DNA of 64,000 nt from Escherichia phage teqhad, in the sequence record NC_054933.1. One strand, given 5' to 3'. A program made the position numbers and the translations under genes. Numbering within the stretch: the first letter of the stretch is position 1; each line of letters starts with the position of its first letter. This document shows positions 3,685-11,146 of the stretch, piece after piece. Under the pieces are notes generated by a model that saw only the letters and a list, made by a program, of their open reading frames with translations, had not been told where the DNA came from and made no database searches.

Positions 3685-4046
3685 TACAAACTCTCGGTAA
3701 AGGTACGAGCGATAACGTCGCGCTGCTGTTCCGGAGTCAGAGAGTTAAAGCGAACTGCATAACCGGATACACGGATGGTCAGCTGCGGATATTTTTCCGG
3801 ATGCTTAACTGCATCTTCCAGAGTTTCACGACGCAGAACGTTAACGTTCAGGTGTTGACCACCTTCAATTTTAACTGTAGGCTGTGGCTCAATTTCAATT
3901 TCACGGGCATGCAAACCGTAGAAAATTTCTGGGTCTACAAAAGAGTCCTCTTTAAAGGTTTTAGAGACAATAATTCGTGCTTGAATACCATCTTCAAAAT
4001 AAATAGTACCTTTATGTGTGCCTTCAAGAATTTGATATGCTTTCAT
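3684..4046 (-). CDS. autonomous glycyl-radical cofactor (GrcA/YfiD-like; T4 Y06I-like)
   Basis: C-terminal 60 aa [60 protein letters not shown] is essentially identical to E. coli GrcA as recalled, including the radical Gly in RVSGYAVRF. Confidence 0.9.
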
Positions 4047-4053
4047 ATAAACC

Positions 4054-4380
4054 TCAATTAGAAAATAAATTTATCCAAGATTGTTCTTTAATTAAAAATG
4101 GCTCAGAATCATATGCCATTAAACTTTGGGTGATTAGTCCTTTAAAAGGTCCATCAATAAATTCCATGGTAAAATATGGAATTTTATTCATTAACTGTGC
4201 GTTAGGAGCAGTGCACAAAACTCTGCATCCTTTGAATACACCTTTTTGTAATTTGTATTGCTTGGGATAAAATTCGCTTAAAATGTTGTTATTTGCCAAA
4301 ATTTCAAAATGATTTACCAATTTATTTTTAATAGTTTTTGGCGAAAAATAGAGATATTCGAAAAGCTGTGTGTCTGTCAT
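4054..4380 (-). CDS. hypothetical protein (start set at MTDTQLFEY)
   Basis: ORF track 4054..4434; internal ATG overlaps the stop of the upstream gene (TAATG). Confidence 0.4.
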
Positions 4381-4967
4381 TATTGCATTCCGATTACGAA
4401 AAACTGTGGACGAGTAATACCACCAATGCAACATTTACTATTACAGCAGTAGTGTACAGTGTCAATATGGACGCTATAAATCTTATCCATATCAGGAGAT
4501 TTGACAGGCTCATCAATTATATACAAAATTCGCGAAAGCGATAAACCTCTGAACTTGCTTCCTTTATTACCAATAAAACTGCGTACAGAATCAGTAAATA
4601 AACGAAAACGTATATCATCATTAGAATAACGCGAAAATTCCTTTTTAATGTTATTTGCAGAAATTTTAGCGTAAGCTGAAGTATTAGAAAGAACAATAAC
4701 TGTTCCGCCATCATACAGCCAATTAGCAGCAAAGTTAGTCACAGCAATTGATTTACCAGATTGACGTCCACCATCTATACGAAGTGTGCAGTACTGTTTA
4801 AGTAATTCTTCAAATGGCGGGATATATTCGTTTTTACAAATTTCTTCTACTCTAGCATCAGAATGGTGTGTAAAAGCATTCATCAGGGATAGATAAGGAC
4901 CAGTTAAAAATGTTCTCATTTTATTCTCTCTAAATTTGGGCCATTCCATGGCGCATGAATTGTCCAT
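4380..4967 (-). CDS. hypothetical P-loop-like protein
   Basis: GGRQSGKS Walker-A-like motif and ILYIIDEP Walker-B-like motif; probable true start at MRTFLTG. Confidence 0.5.
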   Translation of the reverse strand: MDNSCAMEWPKFRENKMRTFLTGPYLSLMNAFTHHSDARVEEICKNEYIPPFEELLKQYCTLRIDGGRQSGKSIAVTNFAANWLYDGGTVIVLSNTSAYAKISANNIKKEFSRYSNDDIRFRLFTDSVRSFIGNKGSKFRGLSLSRILYIIDEPVKSPDMDKIYSVHIDTVHYCCNSKCCIGGITRPQFFVIGMQ

Positions 4968-6988: not shown

Positions 6989-7007
<19 letters not shown>

Positions 7008-7477
7008 TCAGTGATAAAGTTATTTAAATTTTGAGTATATTTCTTTTCATCAAAAATCTTTTGCTGTCTGCGTAAACGCCATGGCATTTCAATGAACGTG
7101 TACCATATCCCAGATAATATTGCTGCTGTAAAAATATTAACAAGTATGGTTAAAATAATCCAATCTCCCGTTCTGTCTACTGGACTTTCTCCAAAGAAGC
7201 AAAATACAAATGATGTCACAGGAAAACTAATAATGTACCACAGAATCATAATTTTATCTGTGAACCAATCAGCATTTGTTAACTTAGCACGACCATTATG
7301 AATACACACGAATTTATCATCTGTTATAATAGATGGCTTAGCTGCTTGATATCCCATTCTAAACTCCCTAATCAACAAATTTTTCATATCTTCGGAACAA
7401 CCATTCCAGTCAACTCTATTAACTGAAATGCCATCATCCCCATCATCTAAATCATACCAGCGAGTTTTTAAAATCAT
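6989..7477 (-). CDS. small membrane protein (e.2-e.8 region), array member 1
   Basis: Central hydrophobic helices ILWYIISFPVTSFVFCFFG and WIILTILVNIFTAAILSGIWYTF; C-terminal tail FITECRKLK. Confidence 0.55.
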
Positions 7478-7836
7478 TTAATTTTCCTACAATCACTCAC
7501 AAACTCTTCCATTGATTCTTTTTCAATATAAGACATGTAGCTATTATATTCCTTTAATTGTATTTTGTAATCCTTTTTTCTTTGCCAATTTATTTTAAAA
7601 TTATCATAATGAAAATATAACATGGTACCAAAGAATGAAAATAATGAAATAATTTTAGTATAGTGAAGTTCACTCCAAACTTCTATTATATTTACTGTGC
7701 CGTCAATGTTTAAAATAAGACAGTCAATTAACAATCCAAAAAGACTACCCGCAAGAGCTGCAGCCAACGCTACAGCAAAAATTAAAAATGACTCAGGAAG
7801 AGAATATTTGACTTTATTTAGTTTTGGCTTTTGCAT
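7474..7836 (-). CDS. small membrane protein, array member 2
   Basis: TM helices; C-terminal EEFVSDCRKIK; TAAATG-type overlap with the downstream gene. Confidence 0.55.
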   Translation of the reverse strand: MQKPKLNKVKYSLPESFLIFAVALAAALAGSLFGLLIDCLILNIDGTVNIIEVWSELHYTKIISLFSFFGTMLYFHYDNFKINWQRKKDYKIQLKEYNSYMSYIEKESMEEFVSDCRKIK

Positions 7837-8231
7837 CGTGATTCCTTAACAAATTTCATAATTTCATCAAATTCATGCGCAGCAAGTTTAAGCTGATGTT
7901 CCTTTTTAATCTTTTTACACTGAGCTTTCCAATCACGTACACGTTTACGATAGTGTCTTCCTTGATACCAGTATCCTATCCAATTTATAGGTACTAATAA
8001 AAGCGGAACTACCAATGGAAGAATTAGTGTTGCTCCAAATATTGCACCAGATTCAATATCAGTCATAACGTCTATAACTATTCCAGCAATCAGCAGAATC
8101 ACAAATGATACGGCTACCACAGGACCTATTAACACATCAGTAGAAATTATCTGACGCTTTAATTCATACTTCAACGGTTTACTTGGAAGGTATAGTGATG
8201 GCTTTGACATATTCTCTACATTCCTTAACAA
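7818..8231 (-). CDS. small membrane protein, array member 3
   Basis: Two TM helices; tail KFVKESRCKSQN; true start probably ATG MSKPSLY near 8210. Confidence 0.55.
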   Translation of the reverse strand: MLRNVENMSKPSLYLPSKPLKYELKRQIISTDVLIGPVVAVSFVILLIAGIVIDVMTDIESGAIFGATLILPLVVPLLLVPINWIGYWYQGRHYRKRVRDWKAQCKKIKKEHQLKLAAHEFDEIMKFVKESRCKSQN

Positions 8232-8784
8232 ATTTTTCTAATAATAAATCGCTTTCAAAATTGGGATTTTCTACGAATTTATCAAAAAGATCATCAACAA
8301 TAGTTAAGATATTCTTTTTACTAAGAATACGTTTATTTTCATGCTTCGTTTCAGAATCAACTATAAGAGTAAAGAAATATTTCTTGCCCTGAAATTTTAC
8401 AGTAGTATCAATATAGAATAAATTTGACTTTTGTAAATTACGTTTAAACCATGCATCACTTAAACTATAAACACCAAGATAATCATAATCGTCGTTTAAA
8501 TAACATACTGTCCATTCAGGAGAAATGAAATCAGTAAATTCAACATCAAAATCACATGTTAATGAATGAATTGATTCAATACTGTTAATAAGTATTCCAG
8601 GACGTATTAAAGACTTTTTACCTTTATAAAATCCAGAAAGACTTTCATCAGTTTCATATGAAGAACCCCAATAATAATTACGTCCTTCTGCCATACGTTT
8701 AAGAGCATTTAATAATTGGTCTGGAACATCAACCTGTCTTTGGAACTCTTCAAACATTGAATTGAAATCACTTTGCATTTTCAT
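8179..8784 (-). CDS. hypothetical soluble protein (201 aa) at the head of the array
   Basis: ORF track; C-terminal EKFVKECREYVK encoded over the start region of the next gene. Confidence 0.55.
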   Translation of the reverse strand: MKMQSDFNSMFEEFQRQVDVPDQLLNALKRMAEGRNYYWGSSYETDESLSGFYKGKKSLIRPGILINSIESIHSLTCDFDVEFTDFISPEWTVCYLNDDYDYLGVYSLSDAWFKRNLQKSNLFYIDTTVKFQGKKYFFTLIVDSETKHENKRILSKKNILTIVDDLFDKFVENPNFESDLLLEKFVKECREYVKAITIPSK

Positions 8785-8825
8785 TCCTACTTACTCCAAG
8801 TAATAGGGGCCGAAGCCCCTTATCA

Positions 8826-9419
8826 TTATTTCAGAGAATTAATATATTCCTGAACATCGGCAGAGGTAGTTTCAACCCCAGAAATATTACCATTAAAGGT
8901 TTCAACTCGGGCGAGAGTATCTTCAATATCAACCTTAGTCAGCGCTGCAATTTCAACTACATCATCGGCAGTACTAATTCCAAGGGCATTCGCTGCACGA
9001 GTTTCACGGATATATTCCAATTTAACTGCAAGTTCTTGGCGAGCATCATCCAATTCAACTACTTTCTTGGCGATTTCAATTCGCATTTCAGCATAACCAT
9101 CAGCTTTAGTAGTCAACTGTTCAGCTGTTCGACGATATAGCAAGCCGAGTTTAGCATGCATTGTTACATCTTGACCTTCAGAAAGAAGCTTGCGAATTTC
9201 ACGCTCTTTTGATTCGGCCTGTCGATTCTTTTCGACAATAAGTTCACGAATACGTTTTTCTTCATTAATAGATTTAACAGAAGCAGTTTTTAGATCTTTA
9301 ATCTTATCAAGTAGTTTTGCTGCCGCAGCAGTATACTGTTCTTCAACAGATAGATTTTTAGCCATAGCAGAACCAAGTTTAGTGCGAATAAACTCAACAA
9401 TTTTCTTCAGTGTGTTCAT
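8826..9419 (-). CDS. coiled-coil protein with PspA/IM30-like character
   Basis: 197 aa, helical and charge-rich throughout with heptad-like patterning; weak resemblance to PspA-family helices. Confidence 0.5.
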
Positions 9420-9476
9420 AGTATTTCCTTAGGTTGGTATAATTAGATAATATCACGTTTCTAATAGATTGTAAAC

Positions 9477-9812
9477 TTATTCTTCGTCTAGCTCGTCGAT
9501 AAAGGCGTCGATGGCCTCGACAACGGCATCATTGATAGCCAATAAAATAAAATCATCGTCAGTACCTTTAGAAGATTTTAAAGCATTGATATATGCTTGG
9601 TTGGCGAGTTCCCAAGCCTTTTTAAAATAAGGAGCTTCATCATCGGGGCCAACGAAACGTACGCCTTCAAAGATACGGTTAGCATAATCCAATACCCACT
9701 GTACAGGCATGTTTTGAGAACGTTCGTTAAACTCTTTAAATTCCTTAGATTCAAAAAGCTCTTCAGGATAATCATTTCTATTACAAAAAGCTTTACTAAA
9801 GTTACGTTTCAT
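9477..9812 (-). CDS. hypothetical acidic protein (111 aa)
   Basis: ORF track; acidic C-terminus IDAFIDELDEE. Confidence 0.5.
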   Translation of the reverse strand: MKRNFSKAFCNRNDYPEELFESKEFKEFNERSQNMPVQWVLDYANRIFEGVRFVGPDDEAPYFKKAWELANQAYINALKSSKGTDDDFILLAINDAVVEAIDAFIDELDEE

Positions 9813-9855
9813 AATGTTTTCCTTGTGATGATAAGTCTATAGTAACGCCTTCATA

Positions 9856-10020
9856 CTTAGATGTAAACTATTTCAACATCGCCTTTTGCTGTTTTATAAC
9901 CTTCAGCCCAAGATACAACCGAGTTTTTATCTGAAGATTCAAATTCTGGCATTGGGCTTTCGCCAATGTTCACGCAGTATGTTTCTTCATTTTCGTCGAA
10001 CCAAATAATTAAAGTAGTCA
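9856..10020 (-). CDS. small hypothetical protein (about 54 aa), below the ORF-track cut-off
   Basis: Read by eye: MTTLIIWFDENEETYCVNIGESPMPEF... Confidence 0.3.
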
Positions 10021-10089
10021 TTTATTTCTCCGTTTCTGTATTTGTTTTGATAAGTCTATAATAACACCATCCTTGGTGTTTGTACACAA

Positions 10090-10416
10090 TTATTTCATAT
10101 TATTGAAATATTCTTCTGCGATTTCGTCGTTATCATGGTAAACTTTAGAAGACAGTTTAACATAACCTTCAGCAGTGAACATGTTAATCACAACCTTTAC
10201 AGTATACCACTGACCATCTTCATTACCCATTACTGCGTAAGTTTCAAACATCGGATGGTCAGGACCGATAACTTTAATATCATTCACTGTACGACCGAAA
10301 TCTTCTGAAACACATTTCATAAAGAAGTTGAACAGCTCACCGTAATTATCCATTTCATTCTCCAAGTTGTTTTCTGTATCAGTAGTTGATAGTTGTATAG
10401 TACCATGGAAGGGCAA
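10090..10416 (-). CDS. hypothetical protein
   Basis: ORF track start is TTG; true start may be the internal MDNYGELF. Confidence 0.5.
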   Translation of the reverse strand: MPFHGTIQLSTTDTENNLENEMDNYGELFNFFMKCVSEDFGRTVNDIKVIGPDHPMFETYAVMGNEDGQWYTVKVVINMFTAEGYVKLSSKVYHDNDEIAEEYFNNMK

Positions 10417-10561
10417 GGATGTAAACCGTTTTGTGAAAAAATTTTTAAAAAGTTTTGGGGAATTCTAGGGCAGGAAGGGGAAATCAAAGGATAGGATAAT
10501 ATATTATAAAGGGTAGAAACTAAATGATGTCTAGAGAGGCCCGGAAAGGCCTAGATACCAA

Positions 10562-10590
10562 AAAGCCCCAACCTTTCGGCTAGGGCTAAG
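10562..10590 (-). terminator. rho-independent terminator hairpin downstream of the IP-like gene
   Basis: Plus-strand aaaagccccaacctttcggctagggct; the minus strand reads a GC hairpin followed by a T-run. Confidence 0.6.
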
Positions 10591-10594
10591 AATG

Positions 10595-11068
10595 TTATTT
10601 GATTTGTTTAGCAGACCAAATGCGATCTTTAATAATTTTTTGGATGTCTTCAACATACTCTAGGTCATGAGCATGTGGATTATCTTTGAAACTATGAGCT
10701 CGCGCAAGTTTCTGGCCTTCGGTCTTAATTATCAAAAGTTCTTTAAGAATTGCTTCATACCTAGAGATAATTCCTTTAGCAATATTTTTTTCTTGTGCTG
10801 CTTTAGGGTCAGCCTTAGGAGCAGGTTTACCTGAAGCCTTTGCAAAAGCAGCTCCAGTAGCAACTAAACTTTTCCAGGCCATACTAACTGCATTTCCCGT
10901 AAATCCTTCTGCTTTCATGTCGCGAGCAAATTGGAATCGTGATTCATCAGAAGCATCTTTATAGGAATATTTACCCGCTGCAATGGCTGCTTTTGCGACA
11001 GCTTGAATTTCGGTGCTAAACGCTTCATTTAACACCGCTTCATTTAAAAATTGAGTATATGATTTCAT
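10595..11068 (-). CDS. internal-protein-like protein with a divergent capsid-targeting N-terminus
   Basis: MKSYTQFLNEAVLNEAF resembles the IP CTS MKTYQEFIAEA; Ala- and Lys-rich body. Confidence 0.55.
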   Translation of the reverse strand: MKSYTQFLNEAVLNEAFSTEIQAVAKAAIAAGKYSYKDASDESRFQFARDMKAEGFTGNAVSMAWKSLVATGAAFAKASGKPAPKADPKAAQEKNIAKGIISRYEAILKELLIIKTEGQKLARAHSFKDNPHAHDLEYVEDIQKIIKDRIWSAKQIK

Positions 11069-11118
11069 CTTATTTCCTGTTTTAATTTGTAGATTTAATA
11101 TACTTATTTATACTAAAA

Positions 11119-11146
11119 AGCCCCAACCTTTCGGCTGGGGCTAAGC
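11119..11146 (-). terminator. terminator hairpin, near-identical copy of the one at 10562..10590
   Basis: aaaagccccaacctttcggctggggct. Confidence 0.55.

What the first reader, a model, noticed from the sequence alone, without database searches (positions are those of the whole stretch)
8826..9419. Coiled-coil protein with PspA/IM30-like character next to the membrane-protein array
The 197-aa product is almost entirely helical and charge-rich with heptad periodicity, and the segment [26 protein letters not shown] loosely recalls PspA-family helices. A phage membrane-remodelling or envelope-stress protein would be functionally interesting. The resemblance is weak and rests on pattern only.
Basis: inference. 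Interest (0 to 1): 0.5.

Follow-up and report, generated by a model that had tools for sequence, protein, structure and literature searches.

The report
T4 e.6 is a PspA-like protein
The 197-residue coiled-coil protein is the phage T4 gene e.6 product, and it is a very divergent, compact relative of the bacterial membrane-repair protein PspA/Vipp1 (ESCRT-III superfamily), made early in infection and most likely used to keep the infected cell's inner membrane intact.

Summary
The ORF at 8826-9419 (minus strand, 197 aa) is real. It is the ortholog of T4 gene e.6 (phrog_1203), found in over 1000 phage genomes.

- A profile of 51 family members puts Vipp1/PspA on top of all PDB sequences (E 7e-5, collinear from residue 1).
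- hhalign against a PspA/Vipp1 alignment gives 92% probability, score 49.9, against at most 31 for 120 shuffled and one reversed control.
- Two Ackermannviridae family members pass Pfam's own PspA_IM30 threshold.
- The AlphaFold model has the alpha0 / alpha1 / alpha2-3 hairpin layout, and Foldseek's eight best PDB hits are all Vipp1.

e.6 alone does not reach the Pfam threshold, and its C-terminal third cannot be matched with significance.

The PspA link was already published for a Kuttervirus member of phrog_1203 (PMC9409062). T4 e.6 itself was still listed as unknown in 2025, and knock-down gave no fitness defect.

The gene has its own early promoter and sits upstream of membrane-protein genes e.5-e.2, which share a C-terminal FVxxCR motif.

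Best reading: a phage-supplied membrane/PMF-stabilising polymer. Function is inferred, not shown.

The parts
8826..9419 (-). e.6 coding sequence (197 aa + TAA), a divergent PspA/IM30-family protein, phrog_1203
9354..9413 (-). codons 3-22: predicted N-terminal amphipathic helix alpha0 (muH 0.45, net charge +4), aligned to the membrane-binding alpha0 of PspA/Vipp1
9180..9347 (-). codons 25-80: helix alpha1, first arm of the coiled-coil hairpin (pLDDT about 85-97)
8985..9164 (-). codons 86-145: helix alpha2/3, second arm of the hairpin. The tip ([18 protein letters not shown]) aligns to the Vipp1 tip TNGEENLAREALARKK.
8829..8984 (-). codons 146-197: acidic C-terminal region (net -7) with two or three short helices and low model confidence. 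It ends in ...YINSLK, which resembles the PspA C-terminal LAxLKAK. Similarity is not significant on its own.
9447..9475 (-). sigma-70/T4-early-type promoter-like site TTTACA-17-TATTAT (TG-extended) 28 nt upstream of the ATG. Shine-Dalgarno AAGGAAA lies at 9424-9430.
   Evidence: early RNA class in T4
8805..8820 (-). G+C-rich hairpin AGGGGC-UUCG-GCCCCU just after the stop codon, between e.6 and e.5. It is annotated as a terminator in phage e11/2.
8179..8784 (-). e.5 (201 aa, no TM), the conserved downstream neighbour; C-terminal FVKECR motif
7818..8210 (-). e.4 (130 aa from the ATG; 2 predicted TM helices; C-terminal FVKESRC)
7474..7836 (-). e.3 (120 aa; predicted TM; C-terminal FVSDCR)
6989..7477 (-). 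e.2 (162 aa; 2 predicted TM helices; C-terminal FITECR)

Best explanation
The ORF is T4 gene e.6, a compact (197 aa) and highly diverged member of the PspA/IM30 (Vipp1, LiaH) branch of the ESCRT-III superfamily.

Shown here:
- Common ancestry with PspA/Vipp1 over residues 1-145.
- The predicted alpha0 / alpha1 / alpha2-3 hairpin architecture.
- A cationic amphipathic N-terminal helix.
- A basic N-terminal half and an acidic C-terminal half.
- Its own early-type promoter.
- From published T4 data: early RNA, detectable protein, and no fitness defect on knock-down in a laboratory host.

Inferred mechanism: soon after infection the protein binds the cytoplasmic face of the inner membrane through alpha0. 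It polymerises through its hairpin as PspA and Vipp1 do. This seals or stabilises stressed membrane and preserves the proton-motive force. T4 shuts off host transcription, so the infected cell can no longer induce its own sigma-54-dependent psp operon, and the phage supplies the function itself. The likely benefit is protection against premature membrane depolarisation. Possible sources of that depolarisation are superinfection or lysis from without, accumulated holin during lysis inhibition, and membrane-targeting abortive-infection systems such as RexAB. The membrane proteins encoded just downstream (e.2-e.4, with e.5) may be its anchors or partners.

My confidence is about 0.9 in the homology and fold, and about 0.45 in the membrane/PMF-protection role. 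The overall figure is a blend of the two.
For: Homology:
- An HMM of 51 family members finds Synechocystis Vipp1 as the best of 177,635 PDB sequences (E 7e-5, query 1-146 vs chain 1-147). Seven of the top nine hits are Vipp1/PspA.
- hhalign against a 15-sequence PspA/Vipp1 alignment gives probability 92.3%, E 5.4e-7, score 49.9, N-terminus to N-terminus.
- Controls score far lower: reversed 16.8, 60 column shuffles at most 18.0, 60 block shuffles at most 31.2. Circular permutations recover the same register.
- Family members P0066 and P0065 score 39.0 and 35.1 bits on PF04012, whose gathering score is 33.9. The e.6 profile retrieves them at 2.9e-20 and 1.5e-21. They fall in phrog_1203 together with e.6.
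- tblastn with P0066 hits annotated e.6 genes directly: RB43 2e-15, phiAS4 1e-10.

Fold:
- Two AlphaFold2 models agree on H3-22, H25-80 and H86-145, with hairpin pLDDT above 85-90.
- The Foldseek PDB top eight are all Vipp1 (E 3.7e-4 to 7e-3), followed by archaeal CdvB; further down the list, among unrelated helical proteins, come CdvB2 and PspA. The hairpin fits 6zvs_A at 2.8 A over 120 columns.
- In BFVD, the first hits outside the e.6 family and outside proteins with no informative name are a phage 'PspA/IM30 family protein' and a giant-virus Snf7.

Features:
- alpha0 has muH 0.45 and charge +4, against 0.42 for PspA and 0.57 for Vipp1.
- Net charge is +7 for residues 1-100 and -8 for residues 101-197.

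Expression and dispensability:
- Promoter-like site TTTACA-17-TATTAT.
- T4 e.6 is classed as early RNA and middle protein (PMC9697503 supplements).
- Knock-down is scored 'Not Fit', meaning no fitness effect (PMC11879866 supplement).

Context:
- A membrane-protein gene follows the e.6 homologue in the T4-like window, in contig L091 and in Kuttervirus sal1.

Prior proposal:
- PMC9409062 reports PspA homology for a Kuttervirus member of phrog_1203 and proposes an anti-abortive-infection role.
Against: - e.6 itself does not reach PF04012 in single-sequence hmmscan, and neither do most close relatives.
- A home-made PspA HMM scores e.6 at 9.0 bits, just above the best decoy at 8.5.
- The C-terminal third (residues 146-197) has low model confidence and no significant match to PspA alpha4/alpha5. 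The parts that mediate inter-subunit packing in PspA/Vipp1 polymers may therefore be altered.
- No PspB/PspC/PspF/LiaI homologues are nearby.
- Nothing here shows membrane binding, oligomerisation or any effect on PMF.
- The lack of a knock-down phenotype leaves the biological role open.
Confidence: 0.6

Rival explanations
1. e.6 keeps the PspA fold but acts on the host Psp system rather than on lipid. It might bind PspF, PspB/C or host PspA (for example by co-polymerising as a dominant-negative subunit) to silence or hijack the host envelope-stress response.
For: E. coli PspA has a second, regulatory function: it binds PspF (established knowledge; summarised in PMC9409062). e.6 retains the alpha1-alpha2/3 hairpin, which is the interaction platform of the family.
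Against: Identity to E. coli PspA is about 13-15%, and the e.6 profile scores Vipp1 (26.4 bits), which has no PspF partner, far better than E. coli PspA (3.8 bits). The family also occurs in Aeromonas, Klebsiella, Serratia and Erwinia phages. T4 shuts off host transcription anyway, which makes a transcriptional target less useful (inference).
Confidence: 0.12
2. e.6 is the soluble polymerising subunit of a phage membrane-remodelling module. The neighbouring proteins e.2-e.5 would recruit it through their shared C-terminal FVxxCR peptide to reshape or partition the inner membrane (for example replication or assembly sites, vesiculation, exclusion of superinfecting DNA), rather than passively seal it.
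For: ESCRT-III/Vipp1 relatives remodel membranes (titles of PDB entries). Three of the only four ORFs in the 64-kb window with F[IV]xxC[RK] are e.2, e.3 and e.5, each at the C-terminus. The same or a similar motif ends the genes just downstream of e.6 homologues in Aeromonas phage 65, RB43/GAP161, L091 and Kuttervirus sal1. Bacterial PspA-family proteins typically work with small membrane-protein partners such as PspBC and LiaI (established knowledge).
Against: No interaction was tested. The neighbours are not homologous to PspB/C or LiaI. In locus L097 the immediate downstream gene is thymidylate synthase. Knock-down of e.2-e.6 individually gives no fitness defect.
Confidence: 0.15
3. e.6 is an unrelated coiled-coil or virion protein, as some database names suggest ('host specificity protein', 'tail completion protein') or as a spanin-like lysis protein. 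On this reading the PspA resemblance is coiled-coil noise.
Against: Shuffled, reversed and permuted controls rule out a composition or periodicity artefact. Intermediate sequences pass Pfam's curated threshold. The gene has an early promoter and an early RNA class, not the late class of structural and lysis genes. It has no TM segment; no lipobox or signal peptide is evident from the sequence. PHROGs lists the family as unknown function.
Confidence: 0.03

Closest known systems
PspA/IM30 family (Pfam PF04012): E. coli PspA, cyanobacterial/chloroplast Vipp1 (IM30), Bacillus LiaH
   Same: Collinear similarity from residue 1 through alpha0, alpha1, the hairpin tip and alpha2/3. An amphipathic N-terminal helix. 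Helix boundaries at about 3-22, 25-80 and 86-145. An acidic C-terminus ending in an LxxLK(A)K-like motif. Similar overall size.
   Different: About 13-15% identity. The conserved KAEDP linker of PspA/Vipp1 is replaced by KN(L/T)S(V)E(E/D). The C-terminal alpha4/alpha5 region is about 25 residues shorter and not significantly alignable. alpha0 is more cationic, +4 against 0 to +2. The gene is encoded by a lytic phage, is transcribed from an early phage promoter, and has no PspBC/PspF/LiaI neighbours.
phrog_1203 member Gp_125 of Salmonella phage SeF3a (Kuttervirus), proposed phage PspA / anti-Abi protein (PMC9409062); 'PspA/IM30 family protein' QMV34086.1 of Salmonella phage sal1
   Same: Same PHROG family as e.6. 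Direct tblastn links to e.6 genes. Similar length, and also followed by a membrane-protein gene. Same proposed role.
   Different: The Ackermannviridae branch is 22-30% identical to the T4 branch and is close enough to PspA to pass the Pfam threshold; T4 e.6 is not. According to the paper it is present in only some Kutterviruses, whereas e.6 is found in over 1000 T4-like records.
ESCRT-III proper (archaeal CdvB/CdvB2, eukaryotic CHMP1B/IST1/Snf7)
   Different: No sequence-level signal. e.6 has an alpha0 helix like PspA/Vipp1, which ESCRT-III proper lacks at that position. No Vps4-type ATPase was seen among the genes examined next to e.6, and no MIM motif was identified.
Canonical PspA genes of huge phages (IMG/VR contigs L085-L090; pspA-like gene next to terD in Jug phages, PMC12880540)
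   Same: Phage-borne PspA-family genes.
   Different: Those keep the KAEDPEK signature, are 23-33% identical to E. coli PspA and are 219-243 aa long. They look like recent captures of bacterial pspA, whereas e.6/phrog_1203 is an old, phage-specific, diverged lineage. Only 45 clusters at 50% identity exist among 1.84 billion representatives, and the full-length ones (about two-thirds) are about 195-209 aa.

Membership tests
PspA/IM30 (Pfam PF04012) | Sequence scores at or above the curated gathering threshold of PF04012 (33.9 bits) | tested here: not met
   e.6 and its 29 closer relatives give no PF04012 hit even at E<=10. Four more distant members of the same family do hit: P0066 39.0 bits, P0065 35.1 bits, P0067 and P0068 about 22 bits.
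PspA/IM30 (Pfam PF04012) | Statistically supported homology to solved PspA/Vipp1 proteins by profile methods | tested here: met
   Family HMM vs PDB sequences: Vipp1 is the top hit, E 7e-5. hhalign probability 92.3%, score 49.9, against controls of at most 31.2. Transitive links through P0065/P0066.
PspA/IM30 (Pfam PF04012) | N-terminal amphipathic helix alpha0 (about residues 2-22) that mediates membrane binding | tested here: met
   Predicted helix 3-22. muH 0.45 against 0.42 for PspA and 0.57 for Vipp1; net charge +4; family median muH 0.43. Aligned to alpha0 of Vipp1/PspA. This is in silico only, and model confidence for alpha0 is low (pLDDT about 50).
PspA/IM30 (Pfam PF04012) | Long alpha1-alpha2/3 coiled-coil hairpin with its tip near residue 80-85 | tested here: met
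   H25-80 and H86-145, pLDDT 85-97. Superposes on Vipp1 6zvs_A at 2.8 A over 120 columns. Foldseek top eight PDB hits are Vipp1.
PspA/IM30 (Pfam PF04012) | C-terminal helices alpha4 and alpha5 that pack on neighbouring subunits in the polymer | tested here: inconclusive
C-terminal-only hhalign scores 15.0 against a null maximum of 13.6, probability 1.9%. The terminal YLxSLK(AK) resembles LAxLKAK.
PspA/IM30 (Pfam PF04012) | Self-assembly into rings, rods or carpets, and binding to anionic membranes | not testable with these tools
   Needs purified protein, EM and liposome assays.
Psp / Lia stress-response systems | Genomic partnership with PspB/PspC/PspF or LiaI/LiaF-type proteins | tested here: not met
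   The neighbours e.5, e.4, e.3, e.2, e.7 and e.8 have no significant Pfam hits and fall in PHROGs that are either of unknown function or generically labelled 'membrane protein'. Different small membrane proteins do follow the gene in several lineages.
ESCRT-III superfamily | Basic N-terminal core and acidic C-terminal region | tested here: met
   Net charge +7 for residues 1-100 and -8 for residues 101-197; -7 for residues 147-197.
ESCRT-III superfamily | Fold-level similarity specific to ESCRT-III/PspA rather than to any helical hairpin | tested here: inconclusive

The most novel reading that the evidence does not exclude
e.6 and the genes that follow it (e.5, e.4, e.3, e.2 in T4; analogous TM proteins in Aeromonas, RB43-type and Ackermannviridae phages) form an ancient phage-specific ESCRT-III-like module. 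In this module a PspA-type polymer is recruited to the inner membrane by a set of paralogous anchors through their common C-terminal F-V-x-x-C-R peptide. It would actively control membrane integrity or lysis timing, or neutralise membrane-depolarising abortive-infection systems. That would be a viral counterpart of PspA-PspBC / LiaH-LiaI with its own adaptor code.
Probability: 0.2. Interest if true: 0.75.

Novelty: new member of a known kind. Interest (0 to 1): 0.55.

Why it matters
T4 is the reference lytic phage, yet about half of its genes, including e.6, still have no assigned function. Placing e.6 in the PspA/Vipp1/ESCRT-III superfamily gives a concrete and cheap set of experiments (membrane binding, polymer formation, PMF and lysis-timing phenotypes, plating on Rex or other membrane-targeting defence hosts).

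It also shows that a diverged, phage-specific lineage of this membrane-repair family is widespread: over 1000 sequenced Straboviridae and Ackermannviridae genomes. By contrast, a Vipp1 query finds canonical PspA in only 2 of 50,697 phage records.

If the protein preserves the proton-motive force of the infected cell, it would be a phage-encoded substitute for a host stress response that the phage itself has silenced, and a candidate counter-defence against abortive infection by membrane depolarisation.

The idea is not wholly new. It was proposed for one Kuttervirus protein in 2022, so the advance is its extension to T4 and the conserved gene neighbourhood.

Tried and rejected
- Single-sequence searches were negative: Pfam on e.6 and on 30 close relatives gave only sub-threshold coiled-coil noise. 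phmmer against the PDB gave nothing. NCBIfam gave nothing for e.6, and only a weak collinear LiaH hit for P0066.
- The first, shallow family profile (A1) reached Vipp1 only at E 1.4-3.4. hhalign of A1 against the single E. coli PspA sequence found nothing for the hairpin.
- The exhaustive representative search with A1 did not reach bacterial PspA: 45 clusters, with all full-length hits about 195-209 aa.
- Attempts to collect a diverse PspA set were unproductive. The search for homologous proteins and the genome-contig scan returned only enterobacterial sequences at 78% identity or more. The diverse sequences finally came from IMG/VR and from a PDB alignment.
- The afdb50 fold library was unavailable.
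- A2 was too diverse for the search for related loci, so neighbourhood conservation rests on seven hand-picked loci.
- The C-terminal region on its own is not significantly PspA-like.
- Literature searches for 'e.6' found no functional study. The HIDEN-SEQ preprint text does not mention it.
- The 'host specificity protein', 'tail completion protein' and Rz-like spanin readings were rejected (see rivals).

Full report
**What is there**

The window is a Tequatrovirus (T4-like) genome segment. The stretch 8700-9500 is 99.1% identical to Escherichia phages slur04, slur11, teqhal and others. The gene order matches the T4 e region: e lysozyme, nudE, e.2, e.3, e.4, e.5, e.6, e.7, e.8, then tRNAs and segB.

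The ORF at 8826..9419 on the minus strand is 197 aa, running from ATG to TAA. It is annotated e.6 in several records. tblastn finds it in 1098 of 50,697 phage records, nearly always full length and down to about 32% identity. It matches phrog_1203 ('unknown function') at E 1.1e-87. Source names are 'hypothetical protein' or, without visible basis, 'host specificity protein'.

**Check of the observation**

- The product is 83% helical in the model.
- It is 34% charged, with no Pro, Cys or Trp.
- It shows a modest 3.5-residue hydrophobic periodicity: 1.35% of shuffles reach the observed power over residues 25-145.
- Downstream, e.4, e.3 and e.2 carry predicted TM helices; e.5 does not.

The description is therefore correct.

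**Is it PspA-like?**

Single-sequence tests were negative. Pfam gave only sub-threshold coiled-coil noise, and phmmer against PDB sequences gave nothing.

A 30-member family profile gave weak but collinear hits to Synechocystis Vipp1: E 1.4-3.4, query 4-143 against chain 4-145. An exhaustive HMM search of 1.84 billion representatives found only 45 clusters, whose full-length members (about two-thirds of them) are about 195-209 aa. This is a small, closed family.

Adding these distant members gave alignment A2 (51 sequences, down to 18% identity), which changed the picture. The A2 profile ranks Vipp1 first among 177,635 PDB sequences at E 7e-5, with residues 1-146 aligned to 1-147. Seven of the top nine distinct sequences are Vipp1/PspA.

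I then built a PspA/Vipp1 alignment from three sources:
- E. coli PspA and enterobacterial relatives;
- Synechocystis Vipp1 (sequence);
- six diverse PspA homologues on IMG/VR contigs.

hhalign of A2 against this alignment gives probability 92.3%, E 5.4e-7, score 49.9, with 133 columns aligned N-terminus to N-terminus.

Controls were as follows:

| Control | Score |
|---|---|
| Real alignment | 49.9 |
| Reversed template | 16.8 |
| 60 full column shuffles | at most 18.0 |
| 60 shuffles of 14-column blocks | at most 31.2 |

Circular permutations of the template always recover the same register.

Sequence-level decoy tests are weaker for e.6 itself:
- The family HMM scores Vipp1 at 26.4 bits, against decoys of at most 9.1.
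- A PspA HMM scores e.6 at 9.0 bits, against decoys of at most 8.5.
- 13 of 51 family members exceed all decoys.

The strongest bridge is through intermediate sequences. P0066 scores 39.0 bits on Pfam PF04012 (E 8.9e-10) and P0065 scores 35.1 bits; both exceed the gathering score of 33.9. The e.6 profile retrieves them at 2.9e-20 and 1.5e-21. They hit phrog_1203 at 3.5e-65 and 1e-52. P0066 hits annotated e.6 genes directly by tblastn: RB43 2e-15, phiAS4 1e-10. These intermediates come from Ackermannviridae (Kuttervirus and Klebsiella phages of about 157 kb). One GenBank record already names the protein 'PspA/IM30 family protein'.

**Structure**

Two AlphaFold2 runs gave mean pLDDT 74.7 and 79.7. 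They agree on helices 3-22, 25-80 and 86-145, with hairpin pLDDT 85-97, followed by a poorly defined acidic tail with two or three short helices. This is the alpha0 / alpha1 / alpha2-3 layout of PspA and Vipp1.

- Foldseek against the PDB lists eight Vipp1 entries first (E 3.7e-4 to 7e-3), then archaeal CdvB; CdvB2 and PspA 7abk appear further down, among unrelated helical proteins. The hairpin superposes on Vipp1 6zvs_A at 2.8 A over 120 columns.
- In BFVD the hits after the e.6 family and proteins without informative names are an Acinetobacter phage 'PspA/IM30 family protein' and a Megaviridae Snf7 protein.

The fold evidence therefore counts only together with the sequence evidence.

**Family features**

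- The N-terminal helix has a hydrophobic moment of 0.45 (PspA 0.42, Vipp1 0.57) and a net charge of +4.
- The hairpin tip ...[20 protein letters not shown] aligns with Vipp1 ...LTNGEENLAREALARKK.
- The N-terminal half carries +7 and the C-terminal half -8, the ESCRT-III-type asymmetry.
- The C-terminal 50 residues are not significantly alignable on their own: score 15.0 against a null maximum of 13.6. In a relaxed full-length alignment the family's terminal motif (D-V-x-x-Y-L-x-S-L-K-A-K) falls on the PspA terminal motif (L-A-x-L-K-A-K).

e.6 therefore looks like a full-length but shortened PspA with a remodelled alpha4/alpha5 region.

**Expression and context**

- A T4-early-type promoter-like site (TTTACA-17-TATTAT, TG-extended) lies at 9475-9447 on the minus strand.
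- A Shine-Dalgarno sequence AAGGAAA lies at 9424-9430.
- A G+C-rich UUCG hairpin at 8805-8820 follows the stop codon. It is annotated as a terminator in phage e11/2.

Published T4 data agree. e.6 (T4p129, UniProt P39224) is classed as early RNA and middle protein, so it is detected at both levels (PMC9697503 supplements 4 and 6). In the CRISPRi-ART screen e.6 is listed as 'unknown function' and its knock-down is scored 'Not Fit', meaning no fitness defect in the laboratory host; the same holds for e.2-e.8 (PMC11879866 supplements 8 and 15).

**Neighbours**

e.5, e.3 and e.2 end in F[IV]xxC[RK], and e.4 ends in FVKESRC. Only 4 of 141 ORFs of 50 aa or more in the window carry that motif.

The genes directly downstream of e.6 homologues elsewhere end in the same or a similar peptide:

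| Phage or locus | C-terminal peptide |
|---|---|
| Aeromonas phage 65 | FIKECR, FVNECR |
| RB43/GAP161 | FIHSCK |
| Contig L091 (about 156 kb, carries P0065) | VVESILANAR... |
| Kuttervirus sal1 | VESIVDRAR, LQIVDKAR |

Those of L091 and sal1 are N-terminally membrane-anchored, except one of the L091 proteins, which has no predicted TM helix. e.5 and the two Aeromonas phage 65 proteins share weak hits to phrog_13418. None has a known function. This suggests a conserved e.6-plus-partner module, but it was not tested further.

**Mechanism**

Shown: homology, architecture, early expression, dispensability in the laboratory, and the conserved neighbourhood.

Inferred: e.6 binds the inner membrane through alpha0, polymerises through its hairpin as PspA and Vipp1 do, and stabilises the membrane and the proton-motive force of the infected cell. 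The rationale, from established knowledge, is twofold. T4 shuts off host transcription, so the sigma-54-dependent psp response cannot be induced. And collapse of the proton-motive force triggers holins and is the killing mechanism of several abortive-infection systems such as RexAB.

Rivals are modulation of the host Psp regulators, an active remodelling module with e.2-e.5, and (now very unlikely) an unrelated coiled-coil or virion protein.

**What is known**

PMC9409062 (2022) reported from an HHpred/pdb70 comparison that Gp_125 of Salmonella phage SeF3a is homologous to PspA. It explicitly assigned that protein to phrog_1203 and proposed an anti-abortive-infection role. A pspA-like gene next to terD is noted in Jug huge phages.

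Canonical PspA is otherwise rare in phages. A Vipp1 query finds 2 of 50,697 phage records and 8 IMG/VR loci, several on contigs of 260-360 kb. I found no paper that assigns T4 e.6 to this family or tests it.

**Verdict**

It fails the Pfam threshold on its own but is tied to the family by profile, intermediate-sequence and fold evidence. Function remains to be shown. Interest is moderate, because it turns an unassigned, widely conserved gene of the best-studied lytic phage into a directly testable membrane-biology hypothesis.

Noticed in passing
window 6989-8784 (minus strand: e.2, e.3, e.4, e.5); L093 4628-5927; L094 4624-5571; L092 4780-5397; L091 6661-8293; L098 3567-4396: The four genes downstream of e.6 share a C-terminal peptide F[IV]xxC[RK] (FVKECR, FVKESRC, FVSDCR, FITECR). 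Only 4 of 141 ORFs of 50 aa or more in the window have it. The genes just downstream of e.6 homologues in Aeromonas phage 65 and RB43/GAP161 end in the same motif. Those of Ackermannviridae-type loci end in a related hydrophobic-x-x-A-R peptide, often after an N-terminal TM helix. This may be a docking motif for the PspA-like protein.
   Followed up: partly
window 10555-10590 and 11110-11145: Two 94%-identical 36-nt copies of a strong terminator hairpin (AGCCCYAGCCGAAAGGTTGGGGCT + T-run on the minus strand) flank the 157-aa ORF 10595-11068. That ORF is absent from the standard T4 e.8-tRNA interval and is unnamed in phage e11/2. The arrangement looks like an inserted cassette bounded by repeated regulatory elements.
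   Followed up: partly
window 9823-9872 and 10042-10091: A 50-nt direct repeat (72% identity) contains early-promoter-like sites (TTTACA-17-TACTAT; TGTACA-17-TATTAT) just upstream of e.7 and of a 54-aa ORF (9857-10021). These are repeated promoter modules of the kind thought to drive gene shuffling in T4-type phages.
   Followed up: no
window 8805-8820: The e.6/e.5 intergenic hairpin has a UUCG tetraloop closed by C-G (GGGGC-UUCG-GCCCC), the very stable hairpin class first described in T4 intercistronic regions. Only a weak T-run follows it, so it may protect the e.6 mRNA 3' end rather than terminate efficiently.
   Followed up: no
L092 (RB43) 4001-4447: RB43 'e.6' is annotated as only 97 aa (4154-4447). 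However, tblastn matches e.6 residues 52-197 and P0066 residues 42-200 starting at 4001 or earlier. The annotated start is probably too far downstream, or the gene is disrupted.
   Followed up: no
database labels for e.6 homologues: Many records and UniRef clusters call this protein 'host specificity protein', and one calls it 'Tail completion protein' (Klebsiella phage UPM 2146). Nothing in sequence, fold, timing or context supports either name. They look like propagated mis-annotations.
   Followed up: partly
L085-L090 (IMG/VR contigs of 77-360 kb): Canonical PspA genes with the KAEDPEK signature (236-243 aa) occur on several very large viral contigs. They carry an insertion in the hairpin-tip region relative to E. 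coli PspA. This is a separate, apparently more recent acquisition of pspA by huge phages.
   Followed up: no
window 7818-8231: The mechanical ORF for e.4 starts at a TTG (8231). The PHROG profile and the T4 annotation (393-nt gene, 130 aa) fit the ATG at 8210 instead. With that start, e.4 overlaps the end of e.5 by 32 nt.
   Followed up: no
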